DNA of 64,000 nucleotides from a virus, in the IMG/VR virus record IMGVR_UViG_3300044624_000801, positions 2,924 through 66,923 of that record, one strand, 5' to 3'. The notes beneath the pieces are model-generated. The model searched no databases, was not told the origin of the DNA, and worked only from the letters and a program-made list of their open reading frames with translations. Position 1 is the stretch's first letter. Every line of letters begins with the position of its first letter. The position numbers and the translations under genes were made by a program. Below, piece after piece: positions 43,090-59,688 of the stretch.

Positions 43090-44103
43090 TTGAGCAATCT
43101 TTTTAAAAAAGTAGCGTGTTTTACAGACATACATTTTGGTCTTAAAAGCAATTCATCAGTCCACAATCAAGATTGTGAGGACTTTGTTGATTGGTATATA
43201 CAAAAAGCCAAGGAGCAAGGATGTGACACAGGTATTTTTATGGGCGATTGGCATCACAACCGCAATAGTCTTAATATTACAACTATGGACTACTCCCTTC
43301 GAGCACTGGAAAAACTCGGACAGGCTTTTGATCAGTTTTATTTCTTTCCTGGTAATCATGATCTTTACTATAAAGATAAGCGTGATATCCACTCTGTAGA
43401 ATTTGGCAAATATATTCCTGGCATCACTGTGGTGCATAAACCTATGACTCAAGGCGATGTTACACTGTGTCCTTGGCTTGTTGGAGAAGAATGGCGACAT
43501 ATTGGCAAGAAGGGTGGCAAGTATATCTTTGGACATTTTGAATTGCCCAGTTTCTTTATGAACGCCATGGTGCAGATGCCGGATCATGGAGAAATAAATC
43601 TTGAAAGTTTCAAAGGTTATGAATTAGGGTTCAGTGGACATTTTCATAAACGTCAACAACAACGTAATATGATCTATATTGGCAATGCATTTCCTCACAA
43701 CTATGCAGATGCATGGGACGACGAACGTGGTATGATGATATTAGAGTGGGGTGGACAACCAGAATATATCAATTGGCCTGACTGTCCTAAATTTAGAACT
43801 ATCAAACTAAGTCAACTTATTGATCAAGCAGACAATTTGTTAAGCAGTAAGATGCATCTTCGAGTTACATTAGATATTGATATCAGTTACGAAGAAGCCA
43901 GTTTTATCAAAGAAAAATTTGTTAATGATTACGACATTAGAGAACTTACACTTATTCCAGAAAAGAAAGAAGTTGAGATGAACACTAGCATTGATGTTCA
44001 AAGTTTTGAAAGTGTTGATCAAATTGTTAGTAAACAATTGATAAACATAGAAAGTGATACTTTTGATACCAAAGTACTATTGAGTGTATATAATAATTTA
44101 TGA
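43090..44103 (+). CDS. gp47: recombination endonuclease subunit gp47 (Mre11/SbcD-like)
   Basis: Metallophosphoesterase motifs TDIHFG, GDWHH, GNHD and GHFH. TTG start at 43090 after AAGGA. Confidence 0.93.
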   Translation: MSNLFKKVACFTDIHFGLKSNSSVHNQDCEDFVDWYIQKAKEQGCDTGIFMGDWHHNRNSLNITTMDYSLRALEKLGQAFDQFYFFPGNHDLYYKDKRDIHSVEFGKYIPGITVVHKPMTQGDVTLCPWLVGEEWRHIGKKGGKYIFGHFELPSFFMNAMVQMPDHGEINLESFKGYELGFSGHFHKRQQQRNMIYIGNAFPHNYADAWDDERGMMILEWGGQPEYINWPDCPKFRTIKLSQLIDQADNLLSSKMHLRVTLDIDISYEEASFIKEKFVNDYDIRELTLIPEKKEVEMNTSIDVQSFESVDQIVSKQLINIESDTFDTKVLLSVYNNL

Positions 44104-45878
44104 TTCGTATAAAAGATCTAACTGTAAAAAATTTCATGAGTGTGGGTAATCAGACTCAGGCTGTAAACTTTGATCGAGAACAACTGACATTGGTACTAGG
44201 TGAAAACTTAGATCAAGGCGGCGACGACAGCGGCAGTCGCAATGGAACTGGTAAAACTACCATTGTAAATGCATTAAGTTTTGCATTGTATGGTCAGGCA
44301 CTAACTAATATCAAAAAAGATAATTTAATCAACAAAATCAACAACAAAAACATGTTGGTCACGTTGACATTTAACAAAGACGGTGTTGATTATCGTGTAG
44401 AGCGTGGGCGTAAACCCAACGTTATGAAATTTTTTGTTAATAATCAAGAGCAGGCATCTGAATCATCTGACGACAGTCAAGGCGACATGCGAGAAACTCA
44501 GAAAGATCTAGACGAATTGTTGGGTATGAGTCATACCATGTTTCGACATATACTGGCTTTAAACACATATACCGAACCGTTTCTGTCGATGAAAACCAAC
44601 GAGCAGAGAGAAATTATCGAACAACTGTTAGGCATTACTCTACTCAGTGAGAAAGCAGAATCTCTTAAAGAACAAATACGCATTAGTAAAGACAGTATCT
44701 ATCAAGAAAATGCTGATATCGAGGCTGCTAAAAAATCAAATGAAAAAATTCAGATCAGCATTACTGGTTTAGAAACCAGACAAAAAGCATGGTATAGTCA
44801 ACAGAAAGACGATTGTGCAAAAATTATACAGAGTATTGCCGAACTGCAGAGTGTAGACATTGAAAAAGAATTAGAACAACATGCTAAACTTAAAGTTTAT
44901 GATGAGCAGAGTGCTAAGATTAAGAGTCTTAACAAAGAAAAAGCCACATTAGAAACAGCAGTAGTTCAAGCAGATAAGTCTGTAAACAAATATTCTAAAG
45001 AAGTTGAACAGTTAAAGAATAAGACATGCCCGGCATGTGAACAAGAACTGCACACGCACAAGCATGAAGAAATGACTGCTGGTGCTGAAAAGAACTTGAT
45101 CGATGCACAAACTTATCTTGATAAAGTCAGCAACGATTATGCTGCCGTTGTTTTAGAGTTAGAGACTATTGGTGATATCAATGGTAGACCTAAAATATAC
45201 TATGATTCGTTAGAAGCGGCATTGAAACATCAAAATAATCTTGCAAGTTTAGAATCAGCACTGTCTAGTAGACAAGTTGAAGTAGATCCTTATCAAGAAC
45301 AAATTGATGATTTGAAACATACTGCTATTCAAGAGATCAATTGGGATAATATCAATGCCATTACCACATTGAAAGATCATCAAGAGTTTCTTTTAAAGTT
45401 ATTAACCAGTAAAGACAGTTTTATTCGTAAGAAGATCATTGATCAAAATCTTGCCTATCTAAACAATCGGTTAACTTATTATCTTGACAAGATGGGATTA
45501 CCGCATCAAGTTAATTTTCAAAACGATCTCAGTGTAGAAATTACACAGTTGGGTCAAGATTTAGATTTTGACAACCTAAGTAGAGGCGAACGCAATCGTT
45601 TAATTTTAGGATTGTCATGGAGTTTCCGTGATGTATGGGAAAGTCTATATCAAAATATCAACTTGTTGTTTATTGACGAATTAATCGACAATGGTTTAGA
45701 TTCTGCAGGTGTTGAAAGTGCATTGAGTGTTTTGAAAAAGATGGCTCGAGAGCGCAACAAAAATATCTATCTAATCAGCCACAAAGACGAATTGATAGGT
45801 CGTGTTACTAATGTTCTCAAAGTTATCAAAGAAAACGGATACACTTCATACAGCAATGACATTGAAATAGTAGAATGA
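44100..45878 (+). CDS. gp46: recombination ATPase subunit gp46 (Rad50/SbcC-like)
   Basis: KNFMSVGN, Walker A NGTGKT, coiled coil with a CPAC zinc hook, signature LSRGE, Walker B FIDE and ISH. Confidence 0.95.
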   Translation: MIRIKDLTVKNFMSVGNQTQAVNFDREQLTLVLGENLDQGGDDSGSRNGTGKTTIVNALSFALYGQALTNIKKDNLINKINNKNMLVTLTFNKDGVDYRVERGRKPNVMKFFVNNQEQASESSDDSQGDMRETQKDLDELLGMSHTMFRHILALNTYTEPFLSMKTNEQREIIEQLLGITLLSEKAESLKEQIRISKDSIYQENADIEAAKKSNEKIQISITGLETRQKAWYSQQKDDCAKIIQSIAELQSVDIEKELEQHAKLKVYDEQSAKIKSLNKEKATLETAVVQADKSVNKYSKEVEQLKNKTCPACEQELHTHKHEEMTAGAEKNLIDAQTYLDKVSNDYAAVVLELETIGDINGRPKIYYDSLEAALKHQNNLASLESALSSRQVEVDPYQEQIDDLKHTAIQEINWDNINAITTLKDHQEFLLKLLTSKDSFIRKKIIDQNLAYLNNRLTYYLDKMGLPHQVNFQNDLSVEITQLGQDLDFDNLSRGERNRLILGLSWSFRDVWESLYQNINLLFIDELIDNGLDSAGVESALSVLKKMARERNKNIYLISHKDELIGRVTNVLKVIKENGYTSYSNDIEIVE

Positions 45879-46108
45879 CAGACAGTCACGACGAGTTATA
45901 TCGAGCATTTCAACAATACTTTAAGTATAATCAAATTTGGGTCACTAGGGGAACCAAAAGAAGTGCTATGGATACTCGTTACTGGCTCAGTGAGATAAGA
46001 AGAATATGCAGTCAACGTCGTGTAGAAATACAAGATTGGCGGCATGAAAAAGATAAATTTAAGGCAATTCAAAAGGCAGAGCAGTCTGAAGATAAAGACA
46101 CTAACTAG
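45875..46108 (+). CDS. hypothetical protein
   Basis: 77-aa ORF with ATGA overlap to gp46. Confidence 0.65.
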   Translation: MTDSHDELYRAFQQYFKYNQIWVTRGTKRSAMDTRYWLSEIRRICSQRRVEIQDWRHEKDKFKAIQKAEQSEDKDTN

Positions 46109-46111
46109 TTA

Positions 46112-46537
46112 ATGTCATGGACTTATCAGAATGAAATTATCGAAACACTTCCCGAAGAGTGTATCGGATTTGTATATCTTATAACCAATGTCATCTCTGG
46201 CAGAAAATATATAGGCAAAAAACTTGCAAAATTCTCTAAGACTACGGTTAAAACTGTAAAACTAAAGAACGGTACCAAGAAGAAAAAGAAGATTAGAAGC
46301 AAAGTCGACAGCGACTGGCGTGACTATTACGGAAGTAGTCCTAATCTTCAAAAAGACATAGACGAATTAGGCAAAGAAAATTTCACAAGAGAAATCTTAT
46401 ATTACTGCAACTCAAAGGCGCAATGCTCTTACATCGAGGCCAGAGAACAATTCTCCCGTAAAGTATTAGAATCAGACGAGTATTACAACGGACACATACA
46501 AGTTCGTGTACATGGCTCACATATATTAAAATCTTAG
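46112..46537 (+). CDS. compact GIY-YIG family endonuclease (Seg-like catalytic domain only)
   Basis: GFVYLITN...KYIGKK, YYGSS, F.REIL and catalytic E in YIEAREQ, ending YYN. Lys-rich insert. No NUMOD/HTH tail. Confidence 0.8.
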   Translation: MSWTYQNEIIETLPEECIGFVYLITNVISGRKYIGKKLAKFSKTTVKTVKLKNGTKKKKKIRSKVDSDWRDYYGSSPNLQKDIDELGKENFTREILYYCNSKAQCSYIEAREQFSRKVLESDEYYNGHIQVRVHGSHILKS

Positions 46538-46940
46538 GCTCATTTAATCTAACACCCAAGGTTGGCGGGCCAGTTTGTAATACCGCTGTGGAAAAACCGG
46601 GGAATAACCGGACACGTAACATATTGATGCACTCCCGTGGAGGTAATCCACTATGCTGAAAAATTGCAAGAGAGTCTAAGGGTTCGAACCATACGCCCAA
46701 CGCATTGATATAGTATGAATGTTAGCATACGAAAAACCGTGCTATAAAAACTTAAACACTAGGAACGAGGTTTAAGACGCTGTAATAAGCGAGTCGATGT
46801 AGGTTGGGAAAGATCAGAGCCCATTAGCATTACGGTAAAACACCTATTTCCAACGTCTCGGCTGTGACAACTCACATGAAGACAAAAAGATGGAACCGTG
46901 CAAAACGGTTCCGTCTGACTGAAACAATCTACATGAATTT
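46538..46940 (+). ncRNA. putative large structured non-coding RNA (family unknown)
   Basis: ORF-free region in an otherwise gene-dense genome, with about 10 stems found by eye (several with G-U pairs on the + strand), A-rich linkers and long-range pairings. Confidence 0.6.
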
Positions 46941-46941
46941 A

Positions 46942-47015
46942 AACTACTTCGTAGTTATTGTTCTAAGAATAATGTGTTGAGCGTTAGCGAAAACACAGAC
47001 GAACTTAGTTCGTCT
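46942..47015. repeat. array of four abutting short hairpins
   Basis: AACTAC-ttc-GTAGTT, ATTGTTC-taa-GAATAAT, TGTGTT-gagcgttagcgaa-AACACA and GACGAAC-tta-GTTCGTC. Confidence 0.75.
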
Positions 47016-47017
47016 CA

Positions 47018-47025
47018 TATAAATA
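47018..47025 (+). promoter_or_regulatory. T4-type late promoter TATAAATA
   Basis: Perfect consensus 5 nt before the ATG at 47031. Confidence 0.8.
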
Positions 47026-47030
47026 TGTAC

Positions 47031-48068
47031 ATGAAAGTCTATGAAATTTTATCAGAAACCACGACATTGCAAGAAGCACTGGCTAATGTGATTAAAACTG
47101 GATTCATGAAATATCAGGTAATGAAACCTAATGGTGTTTTAGATCCCAAGATCTTTAGATCGGCTAAAGGTGCTATTCAACACAAGTCACGATTTTACAT
47201 GACTAAATCTCAAAGAGATGCTAAGATAGCCGCTAAACAACGTCAAGGTGCTGGCGGAGAAGCGCCGCTGATCAAAGGTGCCAAGGACAAAATCAGTCCT
47301 ATTAAGAGAGCACCTAACGGTAAAATTTACACTATGGTAGACGGACAACGTCGATACTATTCAAGTTACGCTGACTACATTAGAAAAAGCAAAATCTGGG
47401 GACCCGGTGTTGCAGCCGCAAGCAAACGTACTGCCGCATTTTGGGAGAAATCTTGGGTAGGATCAACACTGTTGGGTCTTGGTGCCAACTTGGCTGTACC
47501 TATCTTAGAATGGCGCAGTGAAGTAGATGCCATTCATGCAGGATACGTTAATGGAGAATTTAGCAAAGAAGATGCTGAGTGGCAAATCAAGGACATTACA
47601 GATTTAACTATTGCCAAGTTTGTTACAATATTTTTAGGTCTAGGCGCAGCAAGATTAGTTGCTGCAAAATTTCCAATAGATAAAATACTGACATGGGTGT
47701 ATGGAAAAATACCCGGGGGTTCTTGGATTGCCGCACTAGACAAACCTGCATTGACTTTGCTAGTTCAATCAGTGTTAATGAAACAACCTATAGTTGAGGA
47801 TCTTGCTAGAGCAGCGTTGCGACTTATTTATGAATACACACCATATGAAGAATACAGTGATAATTTTTGGTATCAATTATTTCGAGTCACTGGTTATGAA
47901 ATGGTCAACGGTGAATTAGACAAACAACGTATTGCTAGCACAGGATCCACCGCAGGTACCACTTCTGGGCAGACCAAACCACCAGTTGCTAAACCAGAAG
48001 ATAACGACATTGATTTTGGGGTTCCTGGAACTGCCGATAGATTGATCAAGCAGTTTGGTCTAGACTAA
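47031..48068 (+). CDS. putative internal head (packaged/ejected) protein
   Basis: Start MKVYEILSE...LQE resembles T4 capsid-targeting propeptides. Late promoter upstream; basic N-half and hydrophobic helices in the C-half. Confidence 0.5.
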   Translation: MKVYEILSETTTLQEALANVIKTGFMKYQVMKPNGVLDPKIFRSAKGAIQHKSRFYMTKSQRDAKIAAKQRQGAGGEAPLIKGAKDKISPIKRAPNGKIYTMVDGQRRYYSSYADYIRKSKIWGPGVAAASKRTAAFWEKSWVGSTLLGLGANLAVPILEWRSEVDAIHAGYVNGEFSKEDAEWQIKDITDLTIAKFVTIFLGLGAARLVAAKFPIDKILTWVYGKIPGGSWIAALDKPALTLLVQSVLMKQPIVEDLARAALRLIYEYTPYEEYSDNFWYQLFRVTGYEMVNGELDKQRIASTGSTAGTTSGQTKPPVAKPEDNDIDFGVPGTADRLIKQFGLD

Positions 48069-59142: not shown

Positions 59143-59166
59143 TCAAATCTTTTTTAAAAGAAAAAC

Positions 59167-59194
59167 AAAGCGGGTGGCAACATCCGCTTTTTTT
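59167..59194 (+). terminator. rho-independent terminator after gp23
   Basis: AAAGCGGGTG-gcaa-CATCCGCTTT stem with a GNRA loop, followed by a T-run. Confidence 0.9.
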
Positions 59195-59211
59195 ATGACT
59201 TGAGCAAAATG

Positions 59212-59219
59212 GCTAAATA
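59212..59219 (+). promoter_or_regulatory. late promoter variant GCTAAATA
   Basis: TAAATA core just after the terminator. Confidence 0.55.
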
Positions 59220-59307
59220 TCATGTCTAAAAATGATTTTGTTTACCAGCAAAACTTATGCAGTAACCCCACTGCGTAGACCTAGAACGTCAACATAAGGA
59301 GAAACAA

Positions 59308-59688
59308 ATGGGACGTCCATTAAGAAAAGATGTATTAGGTACTGATGTTATCGGCACCCCGGTCAGCGACACTGGCATCAAAGTTCAGTCACATGATGGC
59401 AGCACTCTAAGTGCAGCTTCGTTTATTATTAAGCAGCGCGGCGCAAAAACGTTTGTTATTACAACTAACGGAACAGATCGTCAAACTTGCGTGTTACAAA
59501 GTACAACACCGGCCGCAGCAGGCCAAATGTTAATGATGGGATTTACACAACCTTATCAAGCAGATGCAAATGCAGTACCTATCGCTAAAATTACCAAACG
59601 TGTTGCTACTGATTTTAGCGGTGTTCGTTATACATGGTATTTAGAAAATGATTCGTCAACTGACGTTATTGTGCTGACAGCAATCTAA
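59308..59688 (+). CDS. virion protein (possible capsid decoration protein)
   Basis: 126 aa with a strong TAAGGAG RBS, directly after the major capsid gene. Confidence 0.6.
   Translation: MGRPLRKDVLGTDVIGTPVSDTGIKVQSHDGSTLSAASFIIKQRGAKTFVITTNGTDRQTCVLQSTTPAAAGQMLMMGFTQPYQADANAVPIAKITKRVATDFSGVRYTWYLENDSSTDVIVLTAI

What the first reader, a model, noticed from the sequence alone, without database searches (positions are those of the whole stretch)
46112..46940. Minimal GIY-YIG nuclease followed by a ~400-nt highly structured non-coding element: candidate nuclease-RNA (possibly RNA-guided) system
Seen: the 141-aa GIY-YIG ORF is only a catalytic core with a Lys-rich insert (KTTVKTVKLKNGTKKKKKIRSK) and no C-terminal DNA-binding module. 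Directly after its stop lies the largest ORF-free gap in the window (46538-47030). The gap is packed with stems: TGGCGG/CCGCTG (46563-88), CCGG/CCGG (46597-611), GTGGA/TCCAC (46637-51), TAGCA/TGCTA (46723-44), CTTAAAC/GTTTAAG (46751-76), CGCT/AGCG (46778-91), AGTCGA/TCGGCT (46792-863), GTGA/TCAC (46864-75) and GATGGAACCGT/ACGGTTCCGTC (46889-915). G-U pairs on the + strand and A-rich linkers favour an RNA structure. Known: GIY-YIG homing endonucleases (I-TevI, Seg) rely on extra DNA-binding domains, and nuclease-adjacent large RNAs such as HEARO/omegaRNA with IscB supply specificity. Inference: the RNA may be a scaffold or guide for this nuclease, or an independent large phage ncRNA or ribozyme co-transcribed with it.
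Basis: partly seen in the sequence, partly recalled or inferred. Interest (0 to 1): 0.85.

Follow-up and report, generated by a model that had tools for sequence, protein, structure and literature searches.

The report
Twin-box phage RNA beside nuclease gene
The gene-free stretch behind a small GIY-YIG nuclease gene of this uncultured giant T4-like lake phage encodes a real, knotted non-coding RNA of about 470 bases that carries one 7-letter word twice; it is not the nuclease's dedicated guide and its job is still unknown.

Summary
Window 46549-47015 (+) encodes a large pseudoknotted RNA. In 71 non-identical viral-contig homologues, 94.3% of cells pair, against 32-42% for slid controls. 43 of 91 pairs show compensatory changes. 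G-U cells outnumber A-C cells 506 to 64, so the + strand folds.

No Rfam family matches, even at E<=10. Sister phages carry a Polynucleobacter-1-containing RNA (RF01718) at the same locus. Both types share a 3' module: two about 30-nt units ending in an identical 7-nt word (here ACATGAA, 46874-80 and 46931-37) around a hairpin, then three small hairpins.

The guide idea is not supported. Twenty-six of 138 RNA loci have no GIY-YIG gene, and these sit among tail genes of other phages. In nine loci the gene order is reversed. No complement of the word lies nearby, and the word is not depleted in the phage's own DNA.

The protein is an I-TevI/Seg-type catalytic domain with a conserved basic beta-hairpin.

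This scan has already found this "twin-box" family many times on other DNA. My results agree with those reports. Its function is still unknown.

The parts
46112..46537 (+). Stand-alone GIY-YIG nuclease gene (141 aa). It is a Seg/I-TevI-type catalytic domain with a conserved basic beta-hairpin insert (residues about 40-66) and a conserved but low-confidence C-terminal tail (127-141).
46549..47015 (+). Whole non-coding RNA element ('twin-box' RNA, window type). It runs from the conserved CTAACAC to the end of the terminal hairpin.
   Evidence: Conservation begins at CTAACAC. Covariation. No Rfam match at E<=10.
46560..46920 (+). P0, a long-range closing helix, GGTT 46560-63 with GACT 46917-20.
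   Evidence: 99.3% of cells paired, with GU<->GC one-sided changes only and no compensatory change. Plausible but not proven.
46564..46587 (+). P1 hairpin GGCGG/CCGCT with a 14-nt near-invariant loop GCCAGTTTGTAATA.
   Evidence: 100% paired, 3 of 5 pairs compensatory.
46590..46851 (+). Type-specific 5' domain closed by P2 (GGAA 46590-93 / TTCC 48-51). It contains:
- P3 46597-611
- P4 46621-30 / 46702-11
- P5 46631-34 / 46672-75
- P6 46637-51
- P7 46654-68
- P8 46680-98
- P9 46713-30
- P10 46751-76
- P11 46778-91
- P12 46799-803 / 46843-47
- P13 46805-23
   Evidence: Per-helix counts: 96-100% paired for all but P11 (77%). Compensatory pairs occur in P3, P4, P5, P6, P7, P8, P10, P11, P12 and P13. 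P2 and P9 are invariant.
46796..46815 (+). Pseudoknot PK1: GAT 46796-98 pairs with ATC 46813-15 in the P13 loop.
   Evidence: 3 of 3 pairs compensatory, 99.5% paired.
46736..46836 (+). Long-range helix P14: GCTA 46741-44 with TAGC 46825-28, plus ACCG 46736-39 with CGGT 46833-36. It crosses P12, which makes a second pseudoknot.
   Evidence: GCTA/TAGC is 99.3% paired with 1 compensatory pair (AU 62, GC 8, CG 1). The ACCG/CGGT part is only 48% paired in the MAFFT alignment because of a register shift.
46874..46880 (+). Twin box 1, ACATGAA, at the end of repeat unit 1 (about 46854-46880).
   Evidence: Identical to box 2 in 71 of 71 aligned RNAs across 8 haplotypes. MI equals the column entropy.
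46889..46915 (+). P15 hairpin between the boxes, GATGGAACCGT/ACGGTTCCGTC. The 3' strand GGTTCCGTCTGAC is invariant.
   Evidence: 98.6% paired, 4 pairs with one-sided G-U changes.
46931..46937 (+). Twin box 2, ACATGAA, at the end of repeat unit 2 (about 46911-46937).
46942..47015 (+). 3' extension shared with the Polynucleobacter-1-type RNAs. It has a small hairpin 46942-56, a hairpin 46974-78/46992-96 enclosing GAGCGTTAGCGAA, and a terminal hairpin 46997-47015.
   Evidence: GAGCG..AGCG is present in 80 of 118 unique sequences. The terminal hairpin has 6 of 7 pairs compensatory in 48 sequences of both types.

Best explanation
The gap is a gene for a stand-alone structured non-coding RNA of about 470 nt on the + strand.

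Shown:
- It has about 19 helices and two pseudoknots.
- It has a modular build: a type-specific 5' domain (46560-46851) joined to a 3' module that is common to this RNA and to the RNAs whose first third is Rfam's Polynucleobacter-1 motif.
- The 3' module holds two about 30-nt units that each end in the same 7-nt word, separated by a hairpin and followed by three small hairpins.
- The word differs between phages but is the same in both copies.

Inferred:
- The RNA is made by read-through from the late-sigma (gp55-like), SbcD-like, SbcC-like, GIY-YIG operon. It starts 12 nt after the stop codon, and no terminator or promoter signal lies in between.
- The terminal hairpins stabilise it.
- It works as an RNA or RNP of its own. 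Its invariant loops, and above all the two identical single-stranded words, would be docking sites for a two-fold (dimeric or two-site) sequence-specific reader that has not been identified.
- The GIY-YIG gene is a separate gene (an I-TevI/Seg-type catalytic domain with a basic beta-hairpin arm). It sits next to the RNA because both occupy the same conserved slot behind the SbcC-like gene in giant T4-like phages.

My odds: real RNA gene 0.97; works without needing this nuclease 0.75; the words are read by a protein rather than by base pairing about 0.5.
For: Structure. On 71 sequences under 97% identical, 94.3% of cells pair, against 32.5-42.5% with the partners slid. 43 pairs have compensatory changes, against 6-12 when slid. 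0 of 500 shuffles reach the observed values. RNAalifold on its own gave 33 of 73 pairs compensatory.

Strand. G-U 506 cells against A-C 64 cells.

Not catalogued. No Rfam hit in 45800-47300 at E<=10.

Same locus, other RNA. 64 of 75 GIY-YIG loci with >=250 nt downstream cluster into another gap type. Four of the six loci of that type that were scanned match RF01718. The five loci with an ORF directly after the GIY-YIG gene hold that RNA about 1 kb further on.

Shared 3' module. The match is collinear by nhmmer, E 0.005-0.05. Twin boxes occur in both types. The GAGCG..AGCG hairpin and a covarying terminal hairpin occur in both types.

Independence from the nuclease. 26 of 138 loci lack GIY-YIG. 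Their neighbours include a podophage adaptor (PF23148, E 8.9e-19) and tail-fibre-like genes. Nine loci have the order RNA then GIY-YIG.

No terminator-like or promoter-like site on the + strand between the ORF and the RNA.

RNA-library contigs of relatives cover 46558-46881 in 3 of the 4 runs laid.
Against: Adjacency to GIY-YIG is strong: 103 of 138 loci have it directly upstream and 9 have it downstream. It survives a change of gene order, which pure synteny explains less well.

In other loci a small Zn-ribbon-like ORF sits directly upstream of the RNA, so some small protein partner encoded in cis is possible.

No reader was found and no function was shown.

Expression evidence is weak. The evidence is low-depth contigs of relatives from RNA libraries, in which DNA carry-over cannot be excluded.

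The 150 RNA loci are not de-replicated, and some come from the same contigs as the protein-anchored loci.
Confidence: 0.6

Rival explanations
1. Nuclease-RNA system. The RNA binds the minimal GIY-YIG protein and supplies its specificity, with the two 7-nt words acting as short guides.
For: 112 of 138 RNA loci have the GIY-YIG gene adjacent on the same strand, in two different orders. The protein has no DNA-binding domain. It has a conserved basic hairpin and a conserved, low-confidence C-terminal tail that could hold a partner. The words vary between phages inside a constant scaffold.
Against: 26 of 138 loci have the RNA without the gene. Melnitz has the gene without an RF01718 RNA, and only a 150-nt gap lies behind it. 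No complement of the word lies within -900..+700, with at most 11 of 167 hits in any 10-nt bin. The reverse-complement count in 711 kb of flanks was 43, against about 43 expected. The phage's own word is not depleted in its own flanks compared with phages that carry other words. Seven nucleotides is very short for a guide. As recalled, GIY-YIG enzymes such as T4 EndoII work without extra domains.
Confidence: 0.1
2. Decoy or processed RNA. The two identical words are cleavage or binding sites of one sequence-specific endoribonuclease, host-encoded or phage-encoded. The model is the repeats of type III antitoxin RNAs (ToxI, recalled). The unit between the words would be released or would trap the enzyme, for example as an anti-defence RNA.
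For: The two units are direct repeats that covary position by position while keeping their own fixed differences. That pattern fits one external reader of both. The words change between RNAs that are 86-91% identical elsewhere.
Against: No ToxN-like or other endoribonuclease gene was seen beside the RNA. The large, conserved 5' domain is not needed for such a decoy. There are only two repeats. No raw-read ends were available (laid contigs only).
Confidence: 0.12
3. Cis-acting part of an mRNA, either a 3' UTR element of the GIY-YIG operon or a 5' leader of the next gene. Weinberg et al. 2010 list the related Polynucleobacter-1 motif as a possible cis-regulatory element.
For: The RNA starts 12 nt after the stop codon with no terminator in between. 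The table row for Polynucleobacter-1 in PMC2864571 reads 'y y ?' (column meanings recalled).
Against: The downstream gene differs from locus to locus and is often on the other strand. The upstream gene differs in 26 loci. The size and the pseudoknotted complexity exceed those of known UTR elements. A TATAAATA box lies after the RNA, not before it.
Confidence: 0.08
4. DNA-level element, such as a replication origin or recombination site. The twin words would serve as iterons or crossover cores, and the hairpins would form in single-stranded DNA.
For: Direct repeats that must be identical recall recombination cores and iterons (recalled). Nuclease genes lie nearby.
Against: G-U outnumbers A-C 506 to 64, so the structure is strand-specific. 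There are 43 compensatory pairs, including two pseudoknots. Contigs from RNA libraries cover the element. The word is not repeated elsewhere in the window in its extended form.
Confidence: 0.04

Closest known systems
Polynucleobacter-1 RNA motif (Rfam RF01718; Weinberg et al. 2010, PMC2864571)
   Same: It occupies the same genomic slot in sister phages, behind the same GIY-YIG gene. It has the same 3' continuation with twin boxes, a GAGCG..AGCG hairpin and a terminal hairpin. By eye there are local look-alikes: a first hairpin with a GGCCA..U loop, and ACTATCC-loop-GGA. Its function is likewise unknown.
   Different: The Rfam model (141 positions) does not match the window even at E<=10. The 5' domain here has a different helix topology. 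The Rfam entry covers only the first third of the related RNAs and not the shared 3' module.
HEARO / omega-RNA with IscB, and TnpB omega-RNAs (RNA-guided nucleases; recalled)
   Same: A large structured RNA is encoded next to a small nuclease gene.
   Different: The nuclease fold is GIY-YIG, not RuvC/HNH. There is no Rfam HEARO match. There is no terminal guide. RNA and gene occur apart.
Free-standing GIY-YIG homing endonucleases of T4 (Seg proteins) and the I-TevI catalytic domain
   Different: There is no C-terminal DNA-binding module. There is an extra basic beta-hairpin. The protein is 72-87% identical across loci where the SbcC-like neighbour is 45-85% identical, which is unlike a decaying selfish gene.
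Large ornate phage-associated RNAs GOLLD and ROOL (recalled; both in Rfam)
   Same: It is a large, multi-domain, pseudoknotted RNA of unknown function, found in phages and in environmental DNA.
   Different: No sequence or structure match to either Rfam family. It is smaller. The twin-box module has no counterpart that I know of.

Membership tests
Polynucleobacter-1 RNA (RF01718) | Scores at or above the family's gathering score (37 bits) with the Rfam covariance model | tested here: not met
   No RF01718 match in window 45800-47300 at E<=10, nor in the whole window at gathering. L006 scores 109.8 bits at the same locus.
Polynucleobacter-1 RNA (RF01718) | Same genomic slot and same 3' continuation as RF01718-bearing RNAs (not part of the Rfam definition) | tested here: met
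RNA-guided nuclease systems (IscB/HEARO, TnpB omega-RNA) | RNA and nuclease gene always occur together | tested here: not met
   26 of 138 RNA loci have no GIY-YIG gene. Melnitz has the gene and no RF01718 RNA.
RNA-guided nuclease systems (IscB/HEARO, TnpB omega-RNA) | Variable guide segment at one end of a constant scaffold | tested here: not met
   Both ends are conserved or are hairpins. The only lineage-specific segment is an internal 7-nt word present twice.
RNA-guided nuclease systems (IscB/HEARO, TnpB omega-RNA) | Protein binds the RNA and cuts targets complementary to the guide | not testable with these tools
   This needs a pull-down and a cleavage assay. The indirect tests were negative: no complement nearby and no self-avoidance.
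Free-standing GIY-YIG homing endonucleases (Seg type) | GIY-YIG catalytic domain | tested here: met
Free-standing GIY-YIG homing endonucleases (Seg type) | C-terminal DNA-binding domain | tested here: not met
   The protein is 141 aa and the catalytic-domain profile covers residues 3-129. The tail 127-141 has pLDDT about 41.
Free-standing GIY-YIG homing endonucleases (Seg type) | Sporadic presence among close relatives | tested here: inconclusive
   Loci L003-L082 were found with the protein, so they all hold it by construction. In the RNA-anchored set the 26 loci without it come from other genomic contexts.
Type III antitoxin RNAs (ToxI-like) | Tandem repeats processed by an adjacent endoribonuclease toxin | not tested
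   Two repeat units are present. No toxin gene was looked for beyond Pfam, PHROGs and PADLOC scans of the immediate neighbours, and those found none.

The most novel reading that the evidence does not exclude
The two identical 7-nt words are programmable specificity elements. On this reading the RNA is the recognition subunit of a phage RNP, with the GIY-YIG enzyme or with another small nuclease or Zn-ribbon protein in other phages. The RNP would read one short nucleic-acid word twice, for example the two halves of a repeated DNA site or two copies of an RNA loop. The variable 5' domains would be interchangeable heads.
Probability: 0.08. Interest if true: 0.9.

Novelty: new variant of a known kind. 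Interest (0 to 1): 0.6.

Why it matters
Large, intricately folded RNAs with many invariant loops are rare. Those that have been explained turned out to be ribozymes, RNP cores or guides.

This one is widespread in uncultured aquatic phages. The RNA crosses phage types. Only a distant relative's first third is catalogued, as an orphan motif.

Two features give concrete handles for experiments. One is the modular build, with interchangeable 5' domains on a constant 3' module. The other is the pair of words, which always match each other. Both could be tested by word swaps, pull-downs and end mapping.

If the words prove to be read by base pairing, this would be a new kind of programmable phage RNP. 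If they are read by a host enzyme, it may be a new RNA-based counter-defence.

Tried and rejected
Known RNA families. Rfam at gathering score on the whole window gave only freshwater-2 at 59236-59310. The E<=10 scan of 45800-47300 gave two chance-level rows, StyR-44 and Gut-1. ARAGORN found no tRNA or tmRNA.

- ATGTAGGTT/AATCTACAT: only the GTAGG/TCTAC core is compatible. It breaks in the 9 sequences where P12 covaries.
- Loop TCAGA with TCTGA, and the P10-loop GGAAC with GTTCC: these are invariant, so they cannot be tested.

Codon or stop-codon reading of the word (NNA + TGA/TAA). I raised this from the 11 haplotypes and dropped it when one search showed the words ACATCAA, TCAGAAT, ACGAAAT, GGAAAT and ATCATCAA. 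The regex kept only pairs with <=1 mismatch, so its 162 perfect of 167 is biased. The unbiased figure is 71 of 71 in A2.

The word as a general promoter or other signal. The extended motif occurs only twice in the window. ACATGAA occurs 10 times against 19.6 expected. I do not read anything into this, because CATG-containing words are often avoided. A third copy at 47029-35 overlaps the next ORF's ATG and is not recurrent in other loci.

Upstream promoter. There is only a weak A/T-rich box at -8..-1 before CTAACAC.

Bacterial copies. One 20-mer scan of genome contigs found nothing. A 17-mer scan gave 43 loci, of which only L265, the end of a 1.6-kb MAG contig, holds the RNA. The rest are chance matches in coding DNA.

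Cultured phages. blastn found no match.

Custom covariance model of the Polynucleobacter-1-type 5' part. I abandoned this because the 47-sequence alignment split into at least three subtypes (309 columns, 40% identity).

- No Pfam or PHROGs family.
- PtuB hit only at E 9.1e-4.
- PDB profile search gave only LIM fingers, at E 0.075.
- Atlas scores were under 0.9.

Sequence and fold searches for the GIY-YIG protein. phmmer against the PDB gave nothing. Foldseek pdb gave nothing at E<=0.001.

Reads. In the 4 RNA runs laid, no contig covers 46907-47241. One X1 contig ends at 46881, just after box 1, and X3 and X7 contigs begin at 46558. These are single low-depth contigs of relatives. I draw no conclusion on RNA ends or on absence of the 3' module.

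Literature.
- 'Polynucleobacter-1' found 1 paper, PMC2864571. I saw the listing and one table passage.
- 'GIY-YIG + noncoding RNA + bacteriophage + covariation' found 1 unrelated preprint, listing only.
- A third search found 2 unrelated papers, listings only.
- Supplements were closed. Weinberg 2010's supplementary motif description may say more about the gene context of Polynucleobacter-1.

Not used: complex prediction, the search for homologous proteins, the search of protein representatives.
Full report
CONTEXT. The window is 64 kb of a 66.9-kb IMG/VR virus record. CheckV rates it 19% complete, which points to a giant phage. Upstream of the finding lie four ORFs:
- a late sigma factor (phrog_12791, E 1.7e-74);
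- an SbcD-like nuclease subunit (phrog_100, E 1.7e-66);
- an SbcC-like subunit (phrog_77, E 1.7e-103);
- a 77-aa ORF without a family.
In T4 terms, which I recall, these are gp55, gp47 and gp46. The nearest cultured relatives of the GIY-YIG protein are the Methylophilales phages Melnitz (50% identity) and T4-like cyanophages.

THE PROTEIN. ORF 46112-46537 (141 aa) matches Pfam SegE_GIY-YIG over residues 3-129, against profile positions 1-123 of 123 (E 7.3e-33). It also matches phrog_447 end to end (E 6.5e-37). That family carries the name 'NAD synthetase', which I take to be a propagated misnomer.

An AlphaFold model from 32 homologues has mean pLDDT 84.1. The Lys-rich insert is a long beta-hairpin (strands 40-50 and 56-66). 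The last 15 residues are of low confidence although they are conserved.

THE GAP. The region is the largest stretch of the window free of any ORF of >=50 aa. The + strand folds with z -4.05 and the - strand with z -2.84. Rfam has nothing here even at E<=10, and there is no tRNA or tmRNA.

HOMOLOGUES. A protein-anchored scan of IMG/VR kept 80 loci with GIY-YIG proteins 72-87% identical, nearly all behind an SbcC-like gene. Most loci with enough downstream sequence have an ORF-free stretch of about 390-515 nt right behind the stop codon, whatever the next gene and whatever its strand.

The gap sequences of the 75 loci with >=250 nt downstream fall into these clusters:
- a large cluster of 64 loci;
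- the window's own cluster of 6, counting the window;
- 5 loci with an ORF directly after the gene.
Those last five hold the large-cluster RNA about 1 kb further on.

Two exact-pattern scans with invariant stretches of the window RNA brought 151 further loci, and 150 of them hold the RNA by blastn. These loci are not de-replicated, and a few are the same contigs as before.

STRUCTURE. I aligned 71 full-length RNAs that are under 97% identical to each other (A2). RNAalifold predicted 73 pairs, 33 of them with compensatory changes. An APC-corrected mutual-information scan added two features:
- a 3-bp pseudoknot, 46796-98 with 46813-15;
- a long-range helix, 46741-44 with 46825-28 and 46736-39 with 46833-36, which crosses P12.

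My 91-pair model was counted on A2:
- 94.3% of cells pair, against 32.5-42.5% for partners slid by 1-3 columns;
- 43 pairs have changes on both sides, against 6-12 when slid;
- 0 of 500 shuffles reach the observed pairing, covariation score or number of compensatory pairs.

G-U cells outnumber A-C cells 506 to 64, so the + strand is the folded strand.

TAGCA/TGCTA, AGTCGA/TCGGCT and GTGA/TCAC are not.

RELATION TO POLYNUCLEOBACTER-1. In the large cluster, RF01718 matches about 20-160 nt after the stop codon in L006 (109.8 bits), L016, L044 and L008. That is 4 of the 6 loci of that cluster scanned. None of the four 'ORF-first' loci scanned matched, and none of the three window-type loci did. 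That cluster itself contains at least three different 5' domains.

All types share the 3' part. An nhmmer profile of the window type matches the other type collinearly at profile positions about 320-411, with E 0.005-0.05. After box 2, both types have the following:
- a small hairpin, often with a TTCG loop;
- a hairpin enclosing GAGCG..AGCGA (80 of 118 unique sequences);
- a terminal hairpin with 6 of 7 pairs compensatory.

Many loci, including the window at 47018-25, then show TATAAATA, which I recall as the T4 late-promoter consensus.

I therefore read the element as 46549-47015. It is a type-specific 5' domain on a constant 3' module.

TWIN BOXES. ACATGAA occurs at 46874-80 and at 46931-37. 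Each copy ends an about 30-nt unit that begins CGTCT. In A2 the two words are identical in 71 of 71 sequences, across 8 haplotypes. The mutual information between corresponding columns equals their entropy. Further upstream positions of the two units also covary.

A regex scan found the module in 167 of 232 sequences, with 11 word types. That scan is biased, because it kept only pairs with at most one mismatch. Most of the remaining loci show twin words by eye, including ACATCAA, TCAGAAT and ACGAAAT.

Words differ between RNAs that are 86-91% identical elsewhere.

I looked for a partner and found none:
- No column of the RNA covaries with the words.
- No complementary heptamer lies at a consistent place within -900..+700, even allowing G-U pairs. 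The maximum was 11 of 167 in any 10-nt bin.
- Reverse complements in 711 kb of flanks number 43, about the number expected for a 7-mer.

IS IT THE NUCLEASE'S RNA? Of the 138 RNA-anchored loci with >=600 nt upstream:
- 103 have the GIY-YIG gene directly upstream on the same strand. In 52 the gap is under 60 nt. In 49 there is a 200-330-nt interval, which in the cases I looked at holds an 88-92-aa ORF. Two more abut the RNA.
- 9 have the gene downstream of the RNA.
- 26 have none.

The 26 loci without the gene sit in other contexts. Neighbours include a podophage fibre-tail adaptor (PF23148, E 8.9e-19), a glycosyltransferase and tail-fibre-like proteins.

Melnitz has the protein (50% identity) but only a 150-nt gap behind it, and it has no RF01718 match in its 141.5-kb record.

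If the words guided a DNA nuclease, the phage should avoid its own word. It does not. ACATGAA occurs at 8.8 and 5.3 per 100 kb (the two strands) in flanks of ACATGAA-type phages, against 10.5 and 4.0 in AGATAAT-type phages. AGATAAT occurs at 10.5 and 14.5 in its own type, against 6.7 and 8.4 in the other.

These results argue against a dedicated guide. They do not exclude a looser partnership, because adjacency survives a change of gene order.

EXPRESSION. Twenty-three public runs, 18 of them on record as RNA and mostly freshwater metatranscriptomes, hold 5-13% of the sampled words of 45900-47100. I laid contigs of four runs from four studies at >=82% likeness. Contigs of relatives cover parts of 46558-46881 in X1, X3 and X7, and 46686-46770 in X6. 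Depths are low, the tool cannot exclude DNA in RNA libraries, and contigs cannot give ends. I take this only as compatible with transcription.

MECHANISM. What is shown is an RNA-level, strand-specific, pseudoknotted fold with a modular build and two words that must match each other. What is inferred:
- transcription by read-through from the early/middle operon, since no + strand promoter-like or terminator-like site lies between the ORF and the RNA;
- stabilisation by the 3' hairpins;
- action as an independent RNA or RNP whose twin words are read by a two-fold reader.

The fixed differences between the two units (..CTC-word against ..TCT-word) persist while the words change together. That pattern argues for selection by one external reader rather than for homogenisation by gene conversion. 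This is inference.

Rivals, with my odds:
- word-guided nuclease RNP, 0.10;
- decoy or substrate of a sequence-specific RNase, 0.12;
- cis-acting UTR element, 0.08;
- DNA-level site, 0.04.

NOVELTY. The window-type RNA is in no Rfam 15 family. My three answered literature searches found only Weinberg et al. 2010 for the related motif. Earlier agents of this scan described the same 'twin-box' family on many other genomes, with the same open question. My results were obtained before I read those notes and they agree.

New here, as far as those notes show:
- the own-word depletion test;
- the finding that the stop-codon-like pattern of the words does not hold;
- the per-stem verdict for this window.

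LIMITS. There is no cultured host, no raw reads and no full-length covariance model. Helix P0 and the pairings of invariant loops cannot be tested by covariation. The counts of loci include redundant samples.

Noticed in passing
window 59236-59310 (+): Rfam freshwater-2 RNA (RF02980) matches at 52.5 bits (gathering score 49.9), ending in AAGGAGAAAC..ATG. It lies in the second-largest ORF-free interval of the window, 59143-59307.
   Followed up: no
window 47018-47025 and 47029-47035: TATAAATA (the T4 late-promoter consensus, recalled) follows the terminal hairpin directly, as it does in many related loci. A third ACATGAA overlaps the ATG at 47031 of the next ORF. That ORF (345 aa) has no Pfam, PHROGs or PADLOC family.
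   Followed up: partly
L092:2885-3151 (-), L167:2375-2641 and similar loci: In loci where 200-330 nt separate the GIY-YIG gene from the RNA, an 88-92-aa ORF (MTKL..NPKTGFDK..H..H..CxTC) ends at or inside the first bases of the RNA. PHROGs finds no family for it.
   Followed up: partly
L187:3228-3683 (-), L151:6173-6562, L158:12803-13279 and 9 more: A small CxxC..HWRxxCxxC..NPxTGxF protein lies 210-730 nt upstream of the RNA in 12 unique loci, among them podophage-like contigs and loci where the RNA precedes the GIY-YIG gene. It shares an NPxTGxF motif with the 88-aa ORF. Neither a fold nor a function was found.
   Followed up: partly
L025, L041, L046, L047, L055, L059-L062, L067, L072, L076 (first 180 nt after the GIY-YIG stop): These loci carry a third kind of 5' domain (ACTCTGTG..CCATTGAGGA..). 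It is neither the window type nor recognised as RF01718, yet it is joined to the same twin-box 3' module.
   Followed up: partly
window 46892-46912 (-): Read on the minus strand, the P15 hairpin followed by ATCTTTTTGT scores as terminator-like. The A-run on the + strand is not conserved in homologues.
   Followed up: partly
L265:1493-1586: The only hit in species-representative bacterial genomes is the end of a 1.6-kb contig binned into a freshwater Flavobacteriales MAG. It is probably phage DNA in the bin.
   Followed up: no
window 46112-46537 versus 44100-45878 across L003-L082: The small GIY-YIG protein is 72-87% identical across loci in which the SbcC-like neighbour is only 45-85% identical. 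That is unusually strong conservation for a homing-endonuclease-type gene.
   Followed up: no
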